Assembly: GCA_002412715.1 (NCBI GenBank)
Contig: DHVP01000004.1
Location: 8,707 to 72,706 of the forward strand
Source: Deltaproteobacteria bacterium UBA5205
GTDB taxonomy: Bacteria > Desulfobacterota > Syntrophorhabdia > Syntrophorhabdales > Syntrophorhabdaceae
Reading direction: 5' to 3'
Length of the DNA stretch: 64,000 nt
The translations under genes and the position numbers were made by a program. Below the pieces are notes generated by a model. It ran no database searches, had not been told where the DNA came from, and saw nothing but the letters and a program-made list of their open reading frames with translations. Below are positions 29,292-36,067 of the stretch, in pieces. Each line of letters begins with the position of its first letter. Within the stretch, counting starts at the first letter, position 1.

Positions 29292-29954
29292 CTATTGCTC
29301 ATCCCGATAACGGGCCATCTGTTTTTCTGTCAACACCTCGGAGAGGCGCTTCGTCATGGCTTTTTCGACATCCGCGAGTTCAGAGTTTACGGCGGCGAGA
29401 TCGGGATGGTCCATTTTTTCATACTTCCCGATGATGAGCGCTCGTTTGTTCTTCTGATCTTCCAGGATGGATGCGACCTGCGATTGCTGCGCGGGATCGA
29501 GGTTCAGGCGGTCCTTCAGCGTCGCGGCATCGGGAAGGCCATTCTGCGCAGTGTTCAACAATCTGAAGTAATAGGAAGTGTATCTCCGGGAAAACCTTTC
29601 CTGCCTCGCCTGCAGCCTGGTCTTCTGTTCGTCATTAAGCTTCTCTTTTATGAGTTCAAAATTCCGAACGTAAACCTTCTTGAGACTTGGCTCATAGGAC
29701 GCCCTGACACCTGTCGCCTTTGCCTCCGTCATTGTGAGTATCTTATGGATCTCGGCCTGCTGCCCGGTATCGAGATTGAGGTCAACGGTGAGCTTTTTCA
29801 TGATCTTCTTCACCCTGTCCTCGGCACTGCGTGACCTGTCGGCCCGGGATCCATCCAACTGGTGATTGAGGTATATCCGCGTCCCCAGTGAGCCGGCGAA
29901 GATCCCTACCAGCAGGACGAGCACCAACGTGACGATGATCTTTATCTTGTCCAT
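29292..29954 (-). CDS. Periplasmic Spy/CpxP-like (LTxxQ-repeat) protein
   Basis: N-terminal anchor/signal MDKIKIIVTLVLVLLVGIFAG. Repeated L(N/T)xxQ motifs (LNLDTGQQ, LNDEQKTRLQ, LNLDPAQQ, LTEKQMARY). Start taken at the ATG at 29954. Confidence 0.6.
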   Translation of the reverse strand: MDKIKIIVTLVLVLLVGIFAGSLGTRIYLNHQLDGSRADRSRSAEDRVKKIMKKLTVDLNLDTGQQAEIHKILTMTEAKATGVRASYEPSLKKVYVRNFELIKEKLNDEQKTRLQARQERFSRRYTSYYFRLLNTAQNGLPDAATLKDRLNLDPAQQSQVASILEDQKNKRALIIGKYEKMDHPDLAAVNSELADVEKAMTKRLSEVLTEKQMARYRDEQ

Positions 29955-29967
29955 GGTATCTCTCCTC

Positions 29968-30291
29968 TTAACCATTGTCATCCAGAAGGACCAACTCGAC
30001 GGTGTCGTCGGCCACAATCCGGGCGAAATACTGATCGGCGGTCACATCATAGCGGTATACGGCAACGGCAAGAAATATGATGATCGCACATGCCACGGGG
30101 CAGATTCGCCAGAACATCTTCCCGAACATATCCGTCCAGGCGGGGGCCTCCGACGCGTCCGCGATGCGGCCTATGCTGTTCATGACCCCCATTTCCCATG
30201 AGTTGCCCGGTTCGGGCCCCCCGCGGCTCTTGTGCGTGGCGGCGAGGGCCTTTTCGAGCCTTTTGAGTTCCTCTTCCTTCAGGGATTTCAT
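29968..30291 (-). CDS. Putative single-pass anti-sigma factor
   Basis: 107 aa with one TM segment (ICPVACAIIIFLAVAVY). Lies 15 nt downstream of the ECF sigma gene. The call rests on position and topology only. Confidence 0.5.
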   Translation of the reverse strand: MKSLKEEELKRLEKALAATHKSRGGPEPGNSWEMGVMNSIGRIADASEAPAWTDMFGKMFWRICPVACAIIIFLAVAVYRYDVTADQYFARIVADDTVELVLLDDNG

Positions 30292-30305
30292 ATGACATGC
30301 CTCCT

Positions 30306-31067
30306 TTATTTCCTGCCGGCATCTTTAAGGAGCTTACGAAGCCTGTTGCGCGACCGGAAAGAACGAATCTTCACGTTTGCCGTGCTCCATCCGAGCAGAT
30401 CGGCTGTTTCCCGCACCGATAACCCTTCCATGTAGACGAGTTCCAGCACCATGCGATCTTCCGGTGTCAATCTGGCCAATGCCCAGTCAAGTACTTCCCG
30501 TGCCTCGATCTGCCTTCCGATATCATCCAGCGACCCCCCGGACGACTCGGACAGGGTATACTCGATCCATTCGCGGTGCTGGTCGCCGAGGGAACTCATG
30601 GTCACCTCTTTCGATCGATAGGCGCGTCTCCAGTAGTCGTAGCAGGTTCGTGTCGCAATCGCCGCGATCCAATGTCTGAATCCTTCGGGCCCGCTGAACT
30701 TCGCAAGAGACTCCCAGACCCGTATGAAGGCGTCATGAGCCACCTCTTCGGCGTCCTCATAGGGGATATGGCGATTTACGATCTTAAAGACATACATTTT
30801 GTATTTCTTGAGAAGAAAGGCGAAGGCGTTCCTGTCCCCGTTGAGGACGCGGGTTATATATGCGGCGTCGGAGGACGCATGTTCGTCCTGTTCAATATGA
30901 TCAACCACGGCGGATACCCATACAGGTCTGTTATAACAAAGCTGACCGGCCAGGGCAAGCTCCATATCCAGGGGCCGCCGACCCATCGGCGGGTTTACCG
31001 CCGTGTGAGCCCTCGATCTTGTTTCGCAAACGCCTTCCACATTCTCTCCATCACGGAGCCTTTTCAC
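30306..31067 (-). CDS. ECF-type RNA polymerase sigma-70 family factor
   Basis: Region 2 (EEVAHDAFIRVWESL, FRHWIAAIATRTCYDYWR) and region 4 (LSVRETADLLGWSTANVKIRSFRSRNRL). The GTG at 31067 has an AAGGAG RBS. Internal starts at 30965 (ATG) or further downstream would give a more typical ECF length. Confidence 0.85.
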   Translation of the reverse strand: MKRLRDGENVEGVCETRSRAHTAVNPPMGRRPLDMELALAGQLCYNRPVWVSAVVDHIEQDEHASSDAAYITRVLNGDRNAFAFLLKKYKMYVFKIVNRHIPYEDAEEVAHDAFIRVWESLAKFSGPEGFRHWIAAIATRTCYDYWRRAYRSKEVTMSSLGDQHREWIEYTLSESSGGSLDDIGRQIEAREVLDWALARLTPEDRMVLELVYMEGLSVRETADLLGWSTANVKIRSFRSRNRLRKLLKDAGRK

Positions 31068-31084
31068 CTGCTCCTTTTCCTCTT

Positions 31085-31113
31085 AAGTCGTACCATCCGC
31101 AAAAAAGGTTACA
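31085..31113 (-). promoter_or_regulatory. Candidate ECF-type promoter (TGTAACC-N16-CGACTT) for the sigma operon
   Basis: Minus-strand TGTAACC (31113-31107), a 16-nt spacer, then CGACTT (31090-31085). The same motif pair occurs in mirror image at 31234-31262. Confidence 0.4.
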
Positions 31114-31122
31114 AGAAGATGA

Positions 31123-31224
31123 GAAGATAGGTAATAGGTAATAGGTGATGGGTAATGGGTAAAACGAGAAACAAAAAAAGAGTCCTTCCTATAACCCATT
31201 ACCCATCACCTATTACCTATCTTC
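31123..31224. repeat. Long imperfect inverted repeat built from AT(A/G)GGT(A/G) heptamers
   Basis: Left arm gaagATAGGTAATAGGTAATAGGTGATGGGTAATGGGT (31123-31160). Right arm is its reverse complement minus one heptamer (31194-31224). The loop is about 33 nt. Confidence 0.8.
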
Positions 31225-31233
31225 ATTTCTTTT

Positions 31234-31262
31234 TGTAACCGATCGTGAATCTTTTACGACTT
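31234..31262 (+). promoter_or_regulatory. Candidate ECF-type promoter (TGTAACC-N16-CGACTT) for the efflux operon
   Basis: TGTAACC (31234-31240), a 16-nt spacer, then CGACTT (31257-31262). Mirror image of the site at 31085-31113. Confidence 0.4.
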
Positions 31263-31326
31263 CATAGAAAGCATGATGAAGAATTTGAAAACGTGGATGA
31301 AAAATTATTATGGCAAGGAGCCCCAG

Positions 31327-32616
31327 ATGGAAGAAGCTCATAACGAAACCTCATATATCAGGAAGATCCTCGGGTCGGCAGGACAGGGCAAGGGTCTGAA
31401 GAAAAGAACAATATGGCTTGCCTCGGCCGCGGCTGCAATCATTCTGACGGGGGCGGTTGTCCTATACGCATCGACGGGCAAATCGGAGGTTCGCTACAGG
31501 ACATCTGAGGTCAAGAAGGGCGACCTGACCGTCACCGTCACTGCCACGGGAACGCTGGAGCCTGTCGAGCAGGTTGAGGTCGGCACGGAGGTTTCGGGAA
31601 CTATCAAGACGGTCTCCGTGGATTTCAACGACAAAGTGAAGGTGGGACAGGTCCTTGCAAAACTGGACACGACGAAGCTGGAGGCCCAGGTTCTCCAGTC
31701 GGAAGCGACGTTGAACTACGCACGGGCGAAGCTGCTGGAGACACAGGCTACCGTTTCCGAAACGCAAAGCAAATTGAACCGTTTTAAAGAAAGCCTCGAA
31801 CTCAGCGGGGGCAAGGTTCCTTCCCGAGCCGAATACGACTCCGCGGAGGCGGCATTCAAGCGTGCCAAAGCTCAGGAGGGGACAGCCCGTGCTGATATTG
31901 CGAAGGCTGAGGCGACCCTGAAAGCGAACAAATCCGATCTGTCGAAGGCTACCATACGTTCCACAATCAACGGGATAGTTCTGGAGCGCAAGGTCGAGCC
32001 CGGCCAAACGGTTGCGGCGTCCCTTCAAACTCCGGTATTGTTCAAGCTCGCCGAGGATTTGAGACAGATGGAGCTTCGCATCTATGTCGATGAAGCGGAC
32101 GTTGGCCAGGTTACGGAAGGCCAGAGCGCCATCTTCACTGTAGATGCCTTCCCCGAAAAGGAATTCCCCGCCAAAGTCAAGGAGGCCCGTTTTGCCGCCA
32201 AAACGGAAAATAACGTGGTCACCTATGAGACAATTCTGGAAGTGGACAATACGGAGATGTTCCTTCGTCCCGGCATGACCGCTACCGCCTTTATCACCGT
32301 GAAGAACGTCTCGGATGCCCTCCTGGTTCCCAACGCCGCCCTCAGGTTTACGCCGCCGCAGGACAAATCTCAGAAGGAAGGGTCGGGAGGAAGCCAGTTG
32401 CTGACGAGTCTTTTAAGCCGCAGGCCTCCGGGAGCGAATACGCGGCAAACGCAAAAGCCCAATGGCAGCCCCTCGGTCTGGAAGGTTGAAGGCGAAGGTA
32501 TCGTTCGCGTACCGGTCAAGCCCGGCGTCACTGATGGCGCAATGACACAGATCGTTGAGGGAAATCTTGTCCCCGGGGCCATCGTGGCAACGGACATCGT
32601 GAGGGCAAAACAATGA
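31327..32616 (+). CDS. Efflux periplasmic adaptor subunit (HlyD/MacA family)
   Basis: TM anchor, barrel-sandwich GTLEPVEQVEVGTEVSGTI, a long coiled-coil hairpin, then beta-barrel domains. Start moved to the AAGGAG-preceded ATG at 31327; the ORF track start is 31273. Confidence 0.85.
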   Translation: MEEAHNETSYIRKILGSAGQGKGLKKRTIWLASAAAAIILTGAVVLYASTGKSEVRYRTSEVKKGDLTVTVTATGTLEPVEQVEVGTEVSGTIKTVSVDFNDKVKVGQVLAKLDTTKLEAQVLQSEATLNYARAKLLETQATVSETQSKLNRFKESLELSGGKVPSRAEYDSAEAAFKRAKAQEGTARADIAKAEATLKANKSDLSKATIRSTINGIVLERKVEPGQTVAASLQTPVLFKLAEDLRQMELRIYVDEADVGQVTEGQSAIFTVDAFPEKEFPAKVKEARFAAKTENNVVTYETILEVDNTEMFLRPGMTATAFITVKNVSDALLVPNAALRFTPPQDKSQKEGSGGSQLLTSLLSRRPPGANTRQTQKPNGSPSVWKVEGEGIVRVPVKPGVTDGAMTQIVEGNLVPGAIVATDIVRAKQ

Positions 32617-33350
32617 AGGAACAGATGAATGAGATAGCGCAGAAACCAGGTGAGCCTCTTATCGAACTCATGGGCATCACAAAGGTATACGGCAAGGGAC
32701 AGGCCGCCCTGCAGGCATTGAGAGGAATCGATCTGTCCGTTTACGAAGGCGACTTCGTGGCCGTGATGGGGCCGAGCGGCTGCGGAAAATCAACATGCAT
32801 GAATCTGCTTGGATGTCTCGACACCCCGACGAGCGGCCGGTACCTCTTCAAGGGGATAGACATCGGGGACCTGTCGCGCAACCAGAGGGCATTGCTCAGG
32901 CGCCACTATCTGGGTTTTGTCTTCCAGGGGTTCAACCTTCTCAGCCGGACATCGGCCTTAGAGAATGTTGAGCTGCCTCTCCTGTACAGGGGCACTCCCC
33001 ATTCCCAGCGCAGACAGATCGCCAGCGACGCACTGAATGCGGTGGGCCTTGCCGGGTGGGAGCACCACACTCCGGCAGAGCTCTCCGGAGGGCAGCAGCA
33101 GCGGGTAGCCATAGCACGGGCTATCGCAACCTCGCCAACGGTCCTGCTTGCAGATGAGCCCACAGGCAACCTCGATTCCGTTCGCAGCAGGGAGATTATG
33201 GAACTTCTTTCGACGCTCAACACGGACAGGGGCATCACAGTTATGATGGTCACCCATGAGCCGGACATGGCGGAATATGCGAGCCGCACGGTACGTTTCC
33301 GGGATGGCCTCATCGCTTCCGACAGACGTGGCAGGGAGGTGGTGCAATGA
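32613..33350 (+). CDS. MacB-type ABC transporter ATP-binding protein
   Basis: Walker A GPSGCGKST, signature LSGGQQQRVAIARA and Walker B LLADEPTGNLD. 4-nt overlaps with both neighbouring genes. Confidence 0.9.
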   Translation: MKEQMNEIAQKPGEPLIELMGITKVYGKGQAALQALRGIDLSVYEGDFVAVMGPSGCGKSTCMNLLGCLDTPTSGRYLFKGIDIGDLSRNQRALLRRHYLGFVFQGFNLLSRTSALENVELPLLYRGTPHSQRRQIASDALNAVGLAGWEHHTPAELSGGQQQRVAIARAIATSPTVLLADEPTGNLDSVRSREIMELLSTLNTDRGITVMMVTHEPDMAEYASRTVRFRDGLIASDRRGREVVQ

Positions 33351-34555
33351 TAGGGAACGCGCTTATACTGGCACTTCGGGCGATCCGGCGCAACAAAATG
33401 CGTTCGTTCCTGACGATGCTCGGCATTGTCATCGGTGTCGCGGCTGTCATCACTCTCGTAACGGTGGGAGGCGGGGCAACGGCGAAGGTGACCGAGGATA
33501 TCGCCAAACTCGGCAGCAATCTGCTCATGGTTACGCCCGGCCAGATGAGGGGCGGGGGCGGCGGGCATGGAACGGCCAAATCCTTCGACGTGGATGACGC
33601 AAAGGCCATTACCCGTGAGATAGGTTCTCTTAAGGCGGTTGCCCCGTCCTCTTCCTCGACGGCAATGGCAGTGTTCGGATCAAAGAGCTGGTCGACACTG
33701 GTTACCGGTGTCGAGAACGGTTTTCTGAAGGTGAAGGACTGGTCGGTGGAGGAAGGGAGGGAGTTTTCAGACGGGGAGATCCGTTCGGGAACTGCCGTGT
33801 GCATACTGGGGGCGACGGCGAAGAAAGAGCTCTTCGGCGAGCAGACGCCTGTCGAACAGAGGATTCGGATCAAGGGTATTTCCTTCGAGGTTGTGGGCAT
33901 ACTGACTGCCAAAGGCCAGTCCACCACGGGGAGGGATCAGGATGACCTTATCATCATGCCGCTGCGAGCTTTTCAACGGCGCATTTCAGGAAATGAAGAT
34001 ATCAGCCTGATTCAGGTTTCAGTTGAGGACGGGGCTTCCACGGAAAAGGCCCAGCAGGACATCGAAGGCCTGCTTAGGGAGCGCCGGCGTATTTCAACAC
34101 TTAAGGCGAACGACTTTCAAATCAGGGACATGAAGGAACTGGCGAGTACGATGCTCGCTACGACGCAGCTGCTTACAACGCTTCTCGGCGCGGTGGCGGC
34201 CGTAAGCCTTCTGGTTGGAGGCATCGGGATCATGAACATCATGCTCGTCTCCGTGACGGAACGGACACGGGAGATCGGCACCCGCCTGGCTATAGGCGCG
34301 CTGGAGCGTGAAGTCCTCCTGCAGTTCCTCGTCGAGGCGATGGTGCTTTCCGCATTCGGTGGTTTTTTCGGGATCATACTGGCCCTTATTACGTCCGCCG
34401 TCCTGGTTCGCATCCTTGACGTGCCTTTTGTCTGGAACACAGGGATCATTTTCATCGCCTTTGTTTTTTCGGCGGCGGTCGGGCTTATATTCGGCTACGT
34501 CCCGGCACATAAAGCGGCAAGTCTCGACCCGATCGAGGCGCTTCGACACGAGTAG
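33347..34555 (+). CDS. MacB-type ABC transporter permease (FtsX-like with periplasmic MacB_PCD domain)
   Basis: N-terminal ALRAIRRNKMRSFLTMLGIVIGVAAV, a large periplasmic domain, a C-terminal FtsX helical bundle and a DPIEALRHE terminus. Confidence 0.9.
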   Translation: MIGNALILALRAIRRNKMRSFLTMLGIVIGVAAVITLVTVGGGATAKVTEDIAKLGSNLLMVTPGQMRGGGGGHGTAKSFDVDDAKAITREIGSLKAVAPSSSSTAMAVFGSKSWSTLVTGVENGFLKVKDWSVEEGREFSDGEIRSGTAVCILGATAKKELFGEQTPVEQRIRIKGISFEVVGILTAKGQSTTGRDQDDLIIMPLRAFQRRISGNEDISLIQVSVEDGASTEKAQQDIEGLLRERRRISTLKANDFQIRDMKELASTMLATTQLLTTLLGAVAAVSLLVGGIGIMNIMLVSVTERTREIGTRLAIGALEREVLLQFLVEAMVLSAFGGFFGIILALITSAVLVRILDVPFVWNTGIIFIAFVFSAAVGLIFGYVPAHKAASLDPIEALRHE

Positions 34556-34564
34556 GAAGATAGC

Positions 34565-36067
34565 ATGATCAAGATGGAGGACATAGCGACCATGAACGTC
34601 AAAGAGAGAATCCTGAAGTACGCGGCAATCTTCGCAGCTGTTGTCATGCTGGCCGGATGCGCGACAGTCGGGCCCGATTACGCAGCACCGGATACAAAGG
34701 CCCCCGATAAATGGAATACCGCCGTGCCTGCCGGCAGCGGCGCCGCGGACACATCCCGCGATTCTCTTGCGTCGTGGTGGGCGAACCTAGACGACCCCGC
34801 CCTTGTAGCGCTCATCGATGTTGCTCTCAGGAACAATAAAGACCTCAAGCAGGCGAAGGCACGTATACGGGAAGCCAGGGCCCAGCGGGGTGTCGTCGAA
34901 GCAAGACTCCTGCCTTCGGCAGACGCCTCAGGTTCCTACACGTTGTCCCGGACAGAAAACAATTCCGAGGCGGGAACGACCAGGAACCTTTTTGCCGCGG
35001 GTCTCGATGCCGGATGGGAGATCGATCTTTTCGGCGGCCTCAGAAGGGCCACGGAGGCGTCACAGGCTGCCTACGAAGCATCTCAGGAGGACTACCTGAT
35101 GGTTCATGTGAGCCTGGCGGCGGAGGTTGCCCTCAATTATATCGATGTGCGGACGCTCCAGGAGAGGCTCGCGATCGTCGAAGAAAACCTGAAGCTTCAA
35201 ACGGAGACCTATGAATTGACGACGTATCGTCTCAAGGCCGGCCTTGTAACGCAACTCGACGTGGACCGCGCGAAAACGAACATGGAAGAGACCCGCGCAT
35301 CTGTCCCGACGCTGGTCACCCGTCTGGCCGCCGCCAGGAACAGGCTCTCCGCCCTCATGGGAGAATATCCCGGCTACGCCGACCCGCAGGTCGCCGACCC
35401 CAAAACACTTCCGATAGCCCCCCTCGAAATAGCATTGGGCGTACCCGCGGAAACACTTCGCCGCCGCCCCGACATCCGCAGCGCCGAGAGGGAACTGGCA
35501 GCGCAAACCGCACGGATAGGTGTGGCAACCGCCGATCTGTATCCGAAACTGAGCCTCAACGGTTCCATAGGTATCGATGCCTCCAGCTTCGCTGGCCTCT
35601 TCTCGGCCAATAGCCGCGGCGCCGCCATAGGCCCAAGGTTTACCTGGAACATCTTCAGCGCAGGCGCGGTGCGCAGCAATATCGAAATCCAGAATGCAAA
35701 ACAGGAACAGGCGCTTCTCCAGTATGAGAACACCATCCTCCTGGCCCTGGAAGAAGCCGAAAACGCCATAACCGCCTATGTCAACGAACAAAAGCGCGCC
35801 CAATCGCTGAACGACGCCCTGCTGTCCGCCACCAGTTCAACAAATCTGGCATTGAATCAATACCAATCCGGCCTTATCGATTTTCAAGGCGTACTCGACG
35901 CCCAGAGGACCTTGCTTTCCGTAAAAGACAACCTGGCAGTAAGCAAGGGAACCGTGATAGCCAACCTGGTACGCCTTTACAAGGCCCTCGGCGGCGGCTG
36001 GACCCCCGCGGCAATCCCTGTCCGGCAAGGTTCTTCCGCCAATGGAGAAAAAGAGAAGAAGGGGTAA
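34565..36067 (+). CDS. Outer membrane factor lipoprotein (NodT/TolC family)
   Basis: Lipobox VMLAGCAT. Duplicated TolC-like helical and beta repeats. LVRLYKALGGGW C-terminal motif typical of NodT-family OMFs. Confidence 0.9.
   Translation: MIKMEDIATMNVKERILKYAAIFAAVVMLAGCATVGPDYAAPDTKAPDKWNTAVPAGSGAADTSRDSLASWWANLDDPALVALIDVALRNNKDLKQAKARIREARAQRGVVEARLLPSADASGSYTLSRTENNSEAGTTRNLFAAGLDAGWEIDLFGGLRRATEASQAAYEASQEDYLMVHVSLAAEVALNYIDVRTLQERLAIVEENLKLQTETYELTTYRLKAGLVTQLDVDRAKTNMEETRASVPTLVTRLAAARNRLSALMGEYPGYADPQVADPKTLPIAPLEIALGVPAETLRRRPDIRSAERELAAQTARIGVATADLYPKLSLNGSIGIDASSFAGLFSANSRGAAIGPRFTWNIFSAGAVRSNIEIQNAKQEQALLQYENTILLALEEAENAITAYVNEQKRAQSLNDALLSATSSTNLALNQYQSGLIDFQGVLDAQRTLLSVKDNLAVSKGTVIANLVRLYKALGGGWTPAAIPVRQGSSANGEKEKKG

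What the first reader, a model, noticed from the sequence alone, without database searches (positions are those of the whole stretch)
31085..31262. 178-bp mirror-symmetric control region: two divergent TGTAACC-N16-CGACTT promoters flanking a heptad-repeat hairpin
Between the ECF sigma operon (minus) and the MacAB-type efflux operon (plus), the same ECF-looking promoter pair occurs on both strands. Both copies read TGTAACC, a 16-nt spacer, then CGACTT (31113-31085 minus, 31234-31262 plus). Each lies exactly 9 nt from the ends of a central inverted repeat (31123-31224). The arms of that repeat are tandem AT(A/G)GGT(A/G) heptamers, five on the left and four on the right. The flanks are also partly palindromic (aagtcgta...ggttaca on both sides). 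This could be a composite operator for a repeat-binding regulator, a cruciform- or hairpin-forming element, or a palindromic mobile element that carried a promoter with it. I have not seen this arrangement described.
Basis: seen in the sequence. Interest (0 to 1): 0.62.

Follow-up and report, generated by a model that had tools for sequence, protein, structure and literature searches.

The report
ECF promoter pair split by repeat
Two back-to-back promoters for a stress sigma factor and the neighbouring efflux pump look real and are conserved across species, but the hairpin between them is one of about a hundred copies of a genome-wide seven-base repeat element, not a purpose-built switch.

Summary
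TGTAACC-N16-CGACTT occurs on both strands (31113-31085 minus, 31234-31262 plus). The two copies flank a 102-nt imperfect palindrome of AT(A/G)GGT(N) heptamers (31123-31224).

The genome is a Syntrophorhabdus MAG. The two ECF-type promoter motifs are invariant in all eight orthologous sigma/MacAB-TolC loci that I could read, while their spacers and surroundings diverge. The distance between the -35 boxes ranges from 35 to about 530 nt. Only the nearest relatives carry this hairpin. One species has a different heptamer family at the same spot, and others have unrelated sequence or almost nothing.

The hairpin belongs to a dispersed family: 140 arrays in about 98 loci of this 3.7-Mb genome, 94 of them intergenic. 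The family shows no preference for divergent promoter regions, and half of the gene 3' ends facing an element lie within 12 nt of it. The promoter-bearing flanks are unique in the genome.

Best reading: an autoregulated ECF sigma operon and its divergent efflux operon, with a passenger REP-like heptamer element inserted upstream of both -35 boxes. The closest description is the Xanthomonas/Nostoc heptamer repeats (Rehm 2015). Interest is low to moderate.

The parts
31085..31113 (-). P_sig: ECF-type promoter of the sigma operon (-35 TGTAACC 31113-31107, T-tract spacer, -10 CGACTT 31090-31085)
   Evidence: Invariant TGTAAC.TTTT and TACGACT blocks in 7 aligned orthologues (A2), plus G019. No sigma-70-like site in 30850-31450.
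31234..31262 (+). P_mac: ECF-type promoter of the efflux operon (-35 TGTAACC 31234-31240, -10 CGACTT 31257-31262)
   Evidence: Invariant TTGTAACC.AT and CGACT.CA blocks in 8 sequences (A1), plus G019.
31123..31224 (.). Imperfect palindrome built of ATRGGTN heptamers. It is one copy of a dispersed extragenic family, and the element probably extends to about 31114-31229 with its GAAG/CTTC ends.
   Evidence: for the structure; for the family census.
31127..31161 (+). Left arm: five heptamers, ATAGGTA ATAGGTA ATAGGTG ATGGGTA ATGGGTA. It has one unit more than the right arm, giving a 7-nt bulge.
31162..31187 (.). Loop (AAACGAGAAACAAAAAAAGAGTCCTT). One sister copy, 95% identical, lies 32 kb upstream at genome C37:7889-7927.
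31188..31220 (-). Right arm: a partial unit plus four heptamers, read on the minus strand as ATAGGTA ATAGGTG ATGGGTA ATGGGTT ATAGG.
30306..30965 (-). ECF sigma factor gene. The conserved start is ATG at 30965 (MELALAGQLCYNRPVW...). The open frame runs on to GTG at 31067, but that extension is not conserved.
   Evidence: Pfam Sigma70_r2/r4_2/ECF; TIGR02937 at 93 bits; orthologues 67-97% identical and syntenic; start deduced.
29968..30291 (-). 107-aa protein with one membrane span and no family match; putative anti-sigma factor
   Evidence: Conserved directly downstream of the sigma gene in six loci. The role is inferred from position only.
29292..30017 (-). About 220-241-aa membrane-anchored protein with a weak LTXXQ (CpxP/Spy-like) match; third gene of the sigma operon
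   Evidence: PF07813, E = 0.0018, below cut-off; syntenic.
31327..32616 (+). MacA-type periplasmic adaptor. The likely start is ATG at 31327, behind AAGGAG at 31315-31320. The open frame begins at 31273.
   Evidence: Start deduced (conserved AGGAG-N6-ATGGAAGAA).
32613..34555 (+). MacB-type ABC exporter: ATPase (32613-33350) and MacB_PCD/FtsX permease (33347-34555)
34565..36067 (+). TolC-like outer-membrane factor (OEP)

Best explanation
The locus holds two ancestral, back-to-back ECF-sigma-dependent promoters. P_sig most likely drives the autoregulated operon sigma / putative anti-sigma (107 aa) / LTXXQ-like protein. P_mac most likely drives the divergent MacA-MacB-TolC efflux operon, so the pump is probably the main or only target of this sigma factor. 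The heptamer hairpin between them is not part of that circuit. It is one copy of a REP-like, genome-wide extragenic palindrome family made of ATRGGTN heptamers. That family expanded in this Syntrophorhabdus subclade, and one copy landed in the insertion-tolerant DNA upstream of both -35 boxes. There it is transcribed from neither promoter, so it most likely acts as a neutral spacer. The mirror symmetry arises because an internally palindromic element sits between two copies of one promoter motif that face away from each other. Shown: the motif, its conservation, the family census and the variability at this locus. Inferred: sigma dependence, transcription starts and the neutrality of the insert.
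For: The sigma operon is syntenic in L002-L007.

Both motifs are invariant in all orthologous loci while spacers and upstream DNA diverge (A1, A2). The motif has the ECF hallmarks: AAC in the -35 box, a CGAC -10 like the B. subtilis sigX autoregulatory promoter, and a -35-proximal T-tract on the sigma side (PMC5758882). No sigma-70-like promoter or intrinsic terminator lies in 30850-31450. Genome-wide there are six hits to TGTAAC-N17-18-CGAC. Two are at this locus, and three of the other four are inside genes.

The distance between the -35 boxes is 35 nt (L005 = G006), 112 (L003), 116 (L006), 120 (window), 207 (L002), 258 (L007), 330 (G019) and about 530 (L004).

The same hairpin is present only in L006 and, next to a MITE, in L001. 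L002 carries palindromes of a different heptamer family, GCGTRAA, which is itself genome-wide there: 52 hits against 0 in the control. Contigs from other metagenomes carry 31-37-nt mini heptamer palindromes in place of 31114/31120-31227.

Family census in this genome: 140 arrays against 6 in the reversed-sequence control, forming 98 elements. Adjacent arrays are oriented '+ then -' in 33 cases and '- then +' in none, and 94 of 98 elements are intergenic. By intergenic type the counts are tandem 55, convergent 22, divergent 16, roughly proportional to intergenic length. Of the gene 3' ends facing an element, 49% lie within 12 nt of it, against 24% under uniform placement. The promoter flanks are single-copy. 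The family is absent (0 hits) from the genomes whose loci lack the hairpin.
Against: There are no transcription-start or expression data. The only RNA run is kept as assembled contigs and is uninformative. Sigma dependence rests on motif type, position and conservation alone. Neutrality of the insert is not shown. The hairpin sits directly against both -35 boxes, where upstream promoter contacts are made, and it persists in three related lineages. Two different heptamer families, plus other unrelated inserts, occupy the same inter-promoter gap in different species. That could reflect targeting or selection rather than tolerance. My gene calls for the census are a home-made ORF and codon-usage caller, so distances to stop and start codons are approximate.
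Confidence: 0.8

Rival explanations
1. The heptamer palindrome has been co-opted as a shared cis-regulatory element for the two promoters. It might be an operator for a heptamer-binding protein, an insulator that relieves steric clash between two divergent polymerases, or a supercoil-driven cruciform.
For: It abuts both -35 boxes symmetrically. It is retained in the window, L006 and L001. Five of seven heptamer positions are nearly invariant across 140 arrays although the arms do not co-vary, which fits reading by a protein. Most orthologues have at least 110 nt between the promoters, whatever the sequence.
Against: It is not conserved with the promoters. L005/G006 works with 35 nt, and other species have unrelated inserts. 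About 98 copies lie mostly in non-promoter settings, many next to stop codons. Size varies between close strains, from 31-37 nt to 102 nt. From general knowledge, a 26-nt loop and a 7-nt bulge make cruciform extrusion from duplex DNA unfavourable.
Confidence: 0.08
2. A palindromic mobile element brought one or both promoters with it, with outward-facing promoters at its ends.
For: The extended arms 31077-31159 and 31188-31270 are 73% complementary and include the promoter boxes.
Against: Both promoters are present in five genomes that lack the hairpin and, in four of them, the whole heptamer family. The flanks 31040-31126 and 31221-31300 match only themselves in the genome. No other heptamer element carries TGTAAC-N17-18-CGAC. 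The spacers agree at only 6 of 16 positions.
Confidence: 0.02
3. The TGTAACC...CGACTT motifs are conserved but are not read by the adjacent sigma factor. They could belong to another ECF sigma of the genome or be half-sites of a DNA-binding regulator.
For: There is no experimental link. ECF promoters of different sigmas can overlap in specificity (PMC5758882).
Against: The pair stays with this sigma gene in every orthologous locus. The distance between the two copies varies from 35 to about 530 nt, which a dimeric operator would not tolerate. The fixed 16-17-nt internal spacing and the AAC/CGAC blocks are those of an ECF promoter.
Confidence: 0.1

Closest known systems
Autoregulated ECF sigma promoters, for example B. 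subtilis sigX (-10 CGAC) and sigW/sigV-type promoters with a -35 AAC and a -35-proximal T-tract (Gaballa et al. 2018, PMC5758882)
   Same: A -35 box containing AAC (TGTAAC), a CGAC -10, a 16-17-nt spacer, a T-tract just downstream of the -35 on the sigma-side promoter, a position upstream of the sigma's own operon, and a second copy in front of a neighbouring target operon.
   Different: The organism is a Desulfobacterota syntroph and the ECF group was not assigned. No anti-sigma domain is recognisable in the downstream 107-aa protein. Nothing has been tested experimentally.
Genome-wide G-rich heptamer repeats of Xanthomonas (GGGAATC) and Nostoc (GGGGAYT, the STRR class) (Rehm et al. 2015, PMC4692102)
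   Same: A 7-nt unit with a G-tract and two variable positions, about 100-190 loci per genome, arrays mostly of 4-5 units, and strong over-representation in non-coding DNA. Pairs of arrays in convergent orientation form inverted repeats (70-75 such pairs in Xanthomonas). Elements lie close to stop codons, and length differs between related genomes.
   Different: The unit sequence is ATRGGTN. Only 9 of 140 arrays have four GGG tracts in a row, so a quadruplex cannot be the common denominator. Related species carry different units, GCGTRAR and TCGTAAA. The arrays are associated with a 350-bp MITE, whereas Rehm et al. found no association with mobile elements.
REP/BIME (REPIN) elements of enterobacteria and pseudomonads, with their RAYT transposases
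   Same: Short extragenic imperfect palindromes in about 100 copies, often just after stop codons. They break assemblies and are used as landing sites by other mobile elements.
   Different: The internal 7-nt periodicity. No RAYT link: the only Y1-transposase gene and its orthologues are flanked by a different inverted repeat, GGGGTCAGGTCTTG.
MITEs, such as the Neisseria Correia element, that insert near or donate promoters
   Same: A small palindromic non-coding element lying immediately next to promoter boxes.
   Different: No terminal inverted repeats distinct from the heptamers and no recognisable target-site duplication. The promoters pre-date the element instead of being supplied by it.

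Membership tests
ECF sigma-dependent (autoregulatory) promoter | -35 box with conserved AAC and a group-specific CG-rich -10 (CGT/CGAC) at 16-17 nt spacing | tested here: met
   TGTAACC-N16-CGACTT on both strands. Criteria taken from PMC5758882.
ECF sigma-dependent (autoregulatory) promoter | Located upstream of the sigma factor's own operon and conserved there in orthologues | tested here: met
   Invariant blocks in 7 aligned sigma-side sequences plus G019, and 8 aligned mac-side sequences plus G019. Synteny shown.
ECF sigma-dependent (autoregulatory) promoter | Transcription starts downstream of the -10 and depends on the cognate sigma | not testable with these tools
   The only RNA run (X19) is kept as contigs without direction.
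Dedicated operator or composite control region for the divergent promoters | Element co-conserved with the promoters it controls | tested here: not met
   The inter-promoter segment is 35 to about 530 nt of unrelated sequence in orthologues. The hairpin occurs only in L006 and L001.
Dedicated operator or composite control region for the divergent promoters | Sequence specific to this locus or to a small regulon | tested here: not met
   140 arrays in about 98 loci genome-wide, 94 of them intergenic and in all intergenic classes.
Heptameric intergenic repeats (Rehm et al. 2015; STRR-like) | Tandem 7-nt units, genome-wide, over-represented in non-coding DNA, modal array length about 4 units | tested here: met
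   Arrays by unit number: 28 of 3, 52 of 4, 54 of 5, 5 of 6, 1 of 11. 121 period-7 arrays against 0-7 for periods 8-11. 94 of 98 elements are intergenic.
Heptameric intergenic repeats (Rehm et al. 2015; STRR-like) | Frequent convergent plus/minus array pairs forming inverted repeats, and proximity to stop codons | tested here: met
   41 pairs; 33 '+-' against 0 '-+'. Median distance to a facing stop codon is 14 nt.
Heptameric intergenic repeats (Rehm et al. 2015; STRR-like) | At least four consecutive G3 tracts (quadruplex-competent) | tested here: not met
   9 of 140 arrays. The copy at this locus has only two GGG units per arm.
REP/REPIN-RAYT system | Extragenic imperfect palindromes in many copies | tested here: met
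REP/REPIN-RAYT system | A single-copy Y1 (RAYT) transposase gene flanked by the same repeats | tested here: not met
   The Y1_Tnp gene at C10:162811-163659 and its orthologues in G028, G036 and G041 are flanked by GGGGTCAGGTCTTG-type repeats, not heptamers. G138 has 79 arrays and no homologue.
MITE | Terminal inverted repeats plus a target-site duplication, shown by filled versus empty sites | tested here: inconclusive
   The ends show only a loose GAAG...CTTC. Orthologous 'empty' sites are too diverged to read a duplication.
Known RNA family (Rfam) | Match above the gathering score | tested here: not met
   Only sub-threshold matches to plant and animal miRNA hairpin models, that is, generic long-hairpin hits.

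The most novel reading that the evidence does not exclude
The ATRGGTN palindromes are an actively spreading family, probably horizontally acquired, with an unknown mobilising or templating machinery. The unit is kept at 5 of 7 positions without arm co-variation. It is patchily present in 11 of 201 sampled genomes of the phylum. Sister species carry different heptamer units. The DNA upstream of back-to-back promoters may be a preferred landing site, since two different heptamer families and several other inserts occupy the same gap in different species. If so, these elements would routinely reshape promoter spacing.
Probability: 0.2. Interest if true: 0.55.

Novelty: new member of a known kind. 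Interest (0 to 1): 0.3.

Why it matters
For this locus, the result gives a clean, testable regulon prediction in an uncultured or hard-to-grow syntroph. One ECF sigma factor, one putative membrane anti-sigma, one CpxP-like periplasmic protein and one MacAB-TolC pump are tied together by two conserved promoters. It also removes a false lead: the eye-catching symmetry is an accident of a palindromic repeat landing between two outward-facing copies of one motif.

More generally, Syntrophorhabdus and scattered other Desulfobacterota carry heptamer-built extragenic palindromes of the kind described in Xanthomonas and Nostoc. Here they have lineage-specific units and are mostly not quadruplex-competent. 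That weakens the quadruplex explanation for this class and leaves open what maintains a 7-nt unit.

Tried and rejected
- Rfam scan of 30000-32500 gave only sub-threshold miRNA-hairpin look-alikes.
- Sigma-70 promoter and intrinsic terminator scan of 30850-31450 found nothing.
- RAYT/REP hypothesis: the genome has one Y1 transposase. It and its orthologues have their own, different flanking repeat, and its presence does not track the heptamer family outside the genus. Rejected.
- Hairpin selection test: own-partner agreement at the two variable heptamer positions is 0.69, against 0.667 +/- 0.02 for shuffled partners. There is no evidence that arms are kept complementary, so an origin by perfect palindromic duplication, or strong selection for a perfect stem, is not supported for the family. 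The copy here is among the better-matched ones (7 of 8).
- G-quadruplex reading: only 9 of 140 arrays qualify. Rejected as the general explanation.
- Transcription-start evidence: the only RNA run holding related sequence (X19) is kept as undirected contigs, one of which spans the promoter. Uninformative.
- Regulon search: the motif is no more frequent genome-wide than chance (6 found, about 14 expected for uniform composition). Apart from this locus there is only one other intergenic hit, C10:124117, which I did not follow.
- Literature searches for a described Syntrophorhabdus repeat found nothing relevant.
- DNA search for the orthologous locus in G028 and G036 returned only heptamer hits, so the state of the site in those genomes is unknown.

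Full report
**Observation**

- Minus strand: TGTAACC at 31113-31107, a 16-nt spacer, and CGACTT at 31090-31085.
- Plus strand: TGTAACC at 31234-31240, a 16-nt spacer, and CGACTT at 31257-31262.

TGTAACC-N15-17-CGAC occurs only at these two places in the window, against 0.04 expected. In the whole 3.7-Mb genome, TGTAAC-N17-18-CGAC has six hits. Three of the other four lie inside genes.

Between the two motifs lies an imperfect palindrome, 31123-31224. Its 34-nt arms are 91% complementary. It folds far better than shuffles, with z = -9.1 and -8.6. The arms are tandem AT(A/G)GGT(N) heptamers: five on the left and four and a half on the right. Each -35 box is 9 nt from the palindrome.

**Genes**

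The genome is a Syntrophorhabdus MAG. The nearest named relatives are Syntrophorhabdus MAGs and S. aromaticivorans UI.

On the minus strand lie three genes:
- an ECF sigma factor (Pfam Sigma70_r2/r4_2/ECF; TIGR02937);
- a 107-aa single-span protein with no family match;
- a membrane-anchored protein with a weak LTXXQ (CpxP-like) match.

This trio is syntenic in six related loci.

On the plus strand lie a MacA-type adaptor, a MacB ATPase, a MacB_PCD/FtsX permease and a TolC-like OEP.

Comparison with orthologues moves both start codons. The sigma most likely starts at ATG 30965 (conserved MELAL...QLCYNRPVW), not at GTG 31067. MacA most likely starts at ATG 31327, behind AAGGAG at 31315-31320, not at 31273. 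Both genes therefore have leaders of roughly 55-110 nt behind the predicted promoters.

**The promoters are real features**

I read the orthologous locus in L002, L003, L004 (S. aromaticivorans UI), L005 (= G006), L006, L007, G019 and, for the mac side only, L001. Both motifs are present in every one.

In alignments anchored on the motifs, the only invariant blocks are these:
- mac side: TTGTAACC.AT and CGACT.CA (A1);
- sigma side: TGTAAC.TTTT and TACGACT (A2).

The spacers and the upstream DNA diverge freely. Within the window, the two spacers agree at only 6 of 16 positions. This is the pattern expected when selection acts on two promoter boxes, not when a block has been duplicated.

The motif has the published ECF hallmarks (Gaballa et al. 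2018, PMC5758882):
- AAC in the -35 box;
- a CGAC -10, as in the B. subtilis sigX autoregulatory promoter;
- on the sigma side, the -35-proximal T-tract.

No sigma-70-like promoter or intrinsic terminator is detectable in 30850-31450. That the adjacent sigma reads both promoters is an inference from type, position and co-conservation. It has not been shown.

**The hairpin is not part of the circuit**

| Locus | Distance between -35 boxes (nt) | Content of the gap |
|---|---|---|
| L005 / G006 | 35 | almost nothing |
| L003 | 112 | unrelated sequence |
| L006 | 116 | the same ATRGGTN hairpin |
| window | 120 | ATRGGTN hairpin |
| L002 | 207 | palindromes of another family, GCGTRAA |
| L007 | 258 | unrelated sequence |
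| G019 | 330 | unrelated sequence |
| L004 | about 530 | unrelated sequence |

- L006 (MacA 88% identical) has the same hairpin, with unit-level differences that look like gain and loss of single heptamers.
- L001 (98% identical) has the right arm and loop, with the loop inverted, abutted by a 350-bp MITE-like element.
- The GCGTRAA family of L002 is itself dispersed through that genome: 52 double-unit hits against 0 in the control.
- Contigs from two other metagenomes are colinear with both flanks but carry only 31-37 nt of heptamer palindrome in place of 31114/31120-31227.

**The hairpin belongs to a genome-wide family**

With strict criteria the genome holds 140 ATRGGTN arrays, against 6 in the reversed sequence. 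They form about 98 elements. Adjacent arrays are always '+ then -' (33 cases to 0), which is the palindromic arrangement. Arrays have mostly 4-5 units. Period-7 arrays number 121, against 0-7 for periods 8-11.

94 of the 98 elements are intergenic. The split is tandem 55, convergent 22, divergent 16. This roughly follows the share of intergenic DNA in each class, so the family has no affinity for divergent promoter regions.

Instead, half of the gene 3' ends that face an element lie within 12 nt of it, against 24% under uniform placement. In tandem gaps the element is nearer the upstream stop codon in 37 cases and nearer the downstream start in 18. The copy studied here is therefore in an atypical place.

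The promoter-bearing flanks occur once in the genome. The loop has one sister copy 32 kb away.

**Distribution of the family**

Triple-unit matches, by genome:

| Genome | Matches |
|---|---|
| window genome | 122 |
| G028 | 139 |
| G036 | 119 |
| G046 (L006) | 140 |
| G047 (L001) | 146 |
| G041 (L002) | 29 |
| G006, G042-G045 | 0 |
| G019 | 1 |

So the hairpin is present at this locus only where the family exists.

Across the phylum, four-unit arrays occur in 11 of 201 sampled genomes from several families. Examples are G138 with 79, G217 with 42 and G101 with 40.

**What the family is**

It is not a RAYT-driven REP. The single Y1 transposase gene and its orthologues are flanked by a different inverted repeat, and presence of the gene does not track the family outside the genus.

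The two arms of a palindrome do not match each other at the variable positions better than they match arms of other copies: 0.69 against 0.667 +/- 0.02. Only 9 of 140 arrays could form a three-tetrad quadruplex.

The closest published description is Rehm et al. 2015 (PMC4692102). They report about 185 GGGAATC-type heptamer arrays per Xanthomonas genome. Those arrays prefer four units, are enriched in non-coding DNA, include 70-75 convergent inverted pairs, lie close to stop codons, and differ in length between species. The family here fits that class in architecture but not in quadruplex competence. What maintains the 7-nt unit, and how copies spread, remains unexplained.

**Mechanism and verdict**

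Best reading, at about 0.8:
1. The ECF sigma autoregulates from P_sig and drives the MacAB-TolC operon from P_mac.
2. A REP-like heptamer palindrome inserted upstream of both -35 boxes, in DNA that tolerates insertions in every lineage examined.
3. There it is transcribed from neither promoter and acts at most as a spacer.

The mirror symmetry is a by-product of a palindrome lying between two outward-facing copies of one motif.

Residual possibilities:
- the element was co-opted at this locus (about 0.08);
- the motif is read by another factor (about 0.1);
- the element carried the promoters (about 0.02, effectively contradicted).

Both components are members of known kinds. Interest is low to moderate, and it comes mainly from the heptamer family rather than from the control region.

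Noticed in passing
Genome contig C37:7523-7956 (about 0.75-1.2 kb before window position 1); also C39:84160-84489, C15:187535-187845, C44:65255-65536; L001:150-235: A MITE-like element of about 350 bp, with ends CACTGCTGTCCAAAA.../...TTTTGGACAGCAGTG, sits inside or against ATRGGTN heptamer palindromes. In the 98%-identical strain (L001) it abuts the very hairpin studied here. The heptamer arrays seem to be its landing sites.
   Followed up: partly
Genome contig C10:162811-163659; L101-L104: The only Y1 (IS200/RAYT-like) transposase gene and its orthologues in G028, G036 and G041 are bracketed by their own inverted repeat, GGGGTCAGGTCTTG(A/T)AT. This is a separate small REP/RAYT-like system unrelated to the heptamers.
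   Followed up: partly
L004:3149-3812 (S. aromaticivorans UI): A perfect tandem array of 94/111-bp units (at least 4 copies, 100% identical) fills much of the roughly 1.1-kb leader between the conserved mac promoter and macA.
   Followed up: no
L091-L095 (G041), L098-L099 (G006), genome contigs C41:11059, C20:65214, C1:134494: Other heptamer families exist. GCGTRAR and GTTCCAT palindromes occur in G041, TCGTAAA arrays in G006, and minor G3N4 units (GGGTTTC, GGGATCA, GGGCTTC) in the window's genome. The unit sequence is lineage-specific while the 7-nt period recurs.
   Followed up: partly
Whole genome G000 (census); for example C15:14073, C8:19503, C32:35415: Many heptamer elements begin within a few bases of, or overlap, the stop codon of the upstream gene, often as TGA-AGAC-GGGTA. 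Of facing gene 3' ends, 49% are within 12 nt.
   Followed up: partly
G138, G101, G060 (one genus), G217, G222, G192, G080, G116: The same ATRGGTN unit forms arrays in scattered, unrelated families of the phylum (11 of 201 genomes sampled). This suggests horizontal spread or repeated independent origin.
   Followed up: no
window 30966-31067: The sigma ORF can be extended 34 codons upstream to GTG 31067, behind AAAGGAG, but this extension is absent from orthologues. The roughly 110-nt leader here and in L006 is longer than in other species.
   Followed up: partly
Genome contig C10:124117-124143: This is the only other intergenic match to TGTAAC-N17-18-CGAC, 68 nt upstream of a plus-strand gene. 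It is a possible extra regulon member or a chance match.
   Followed up: no
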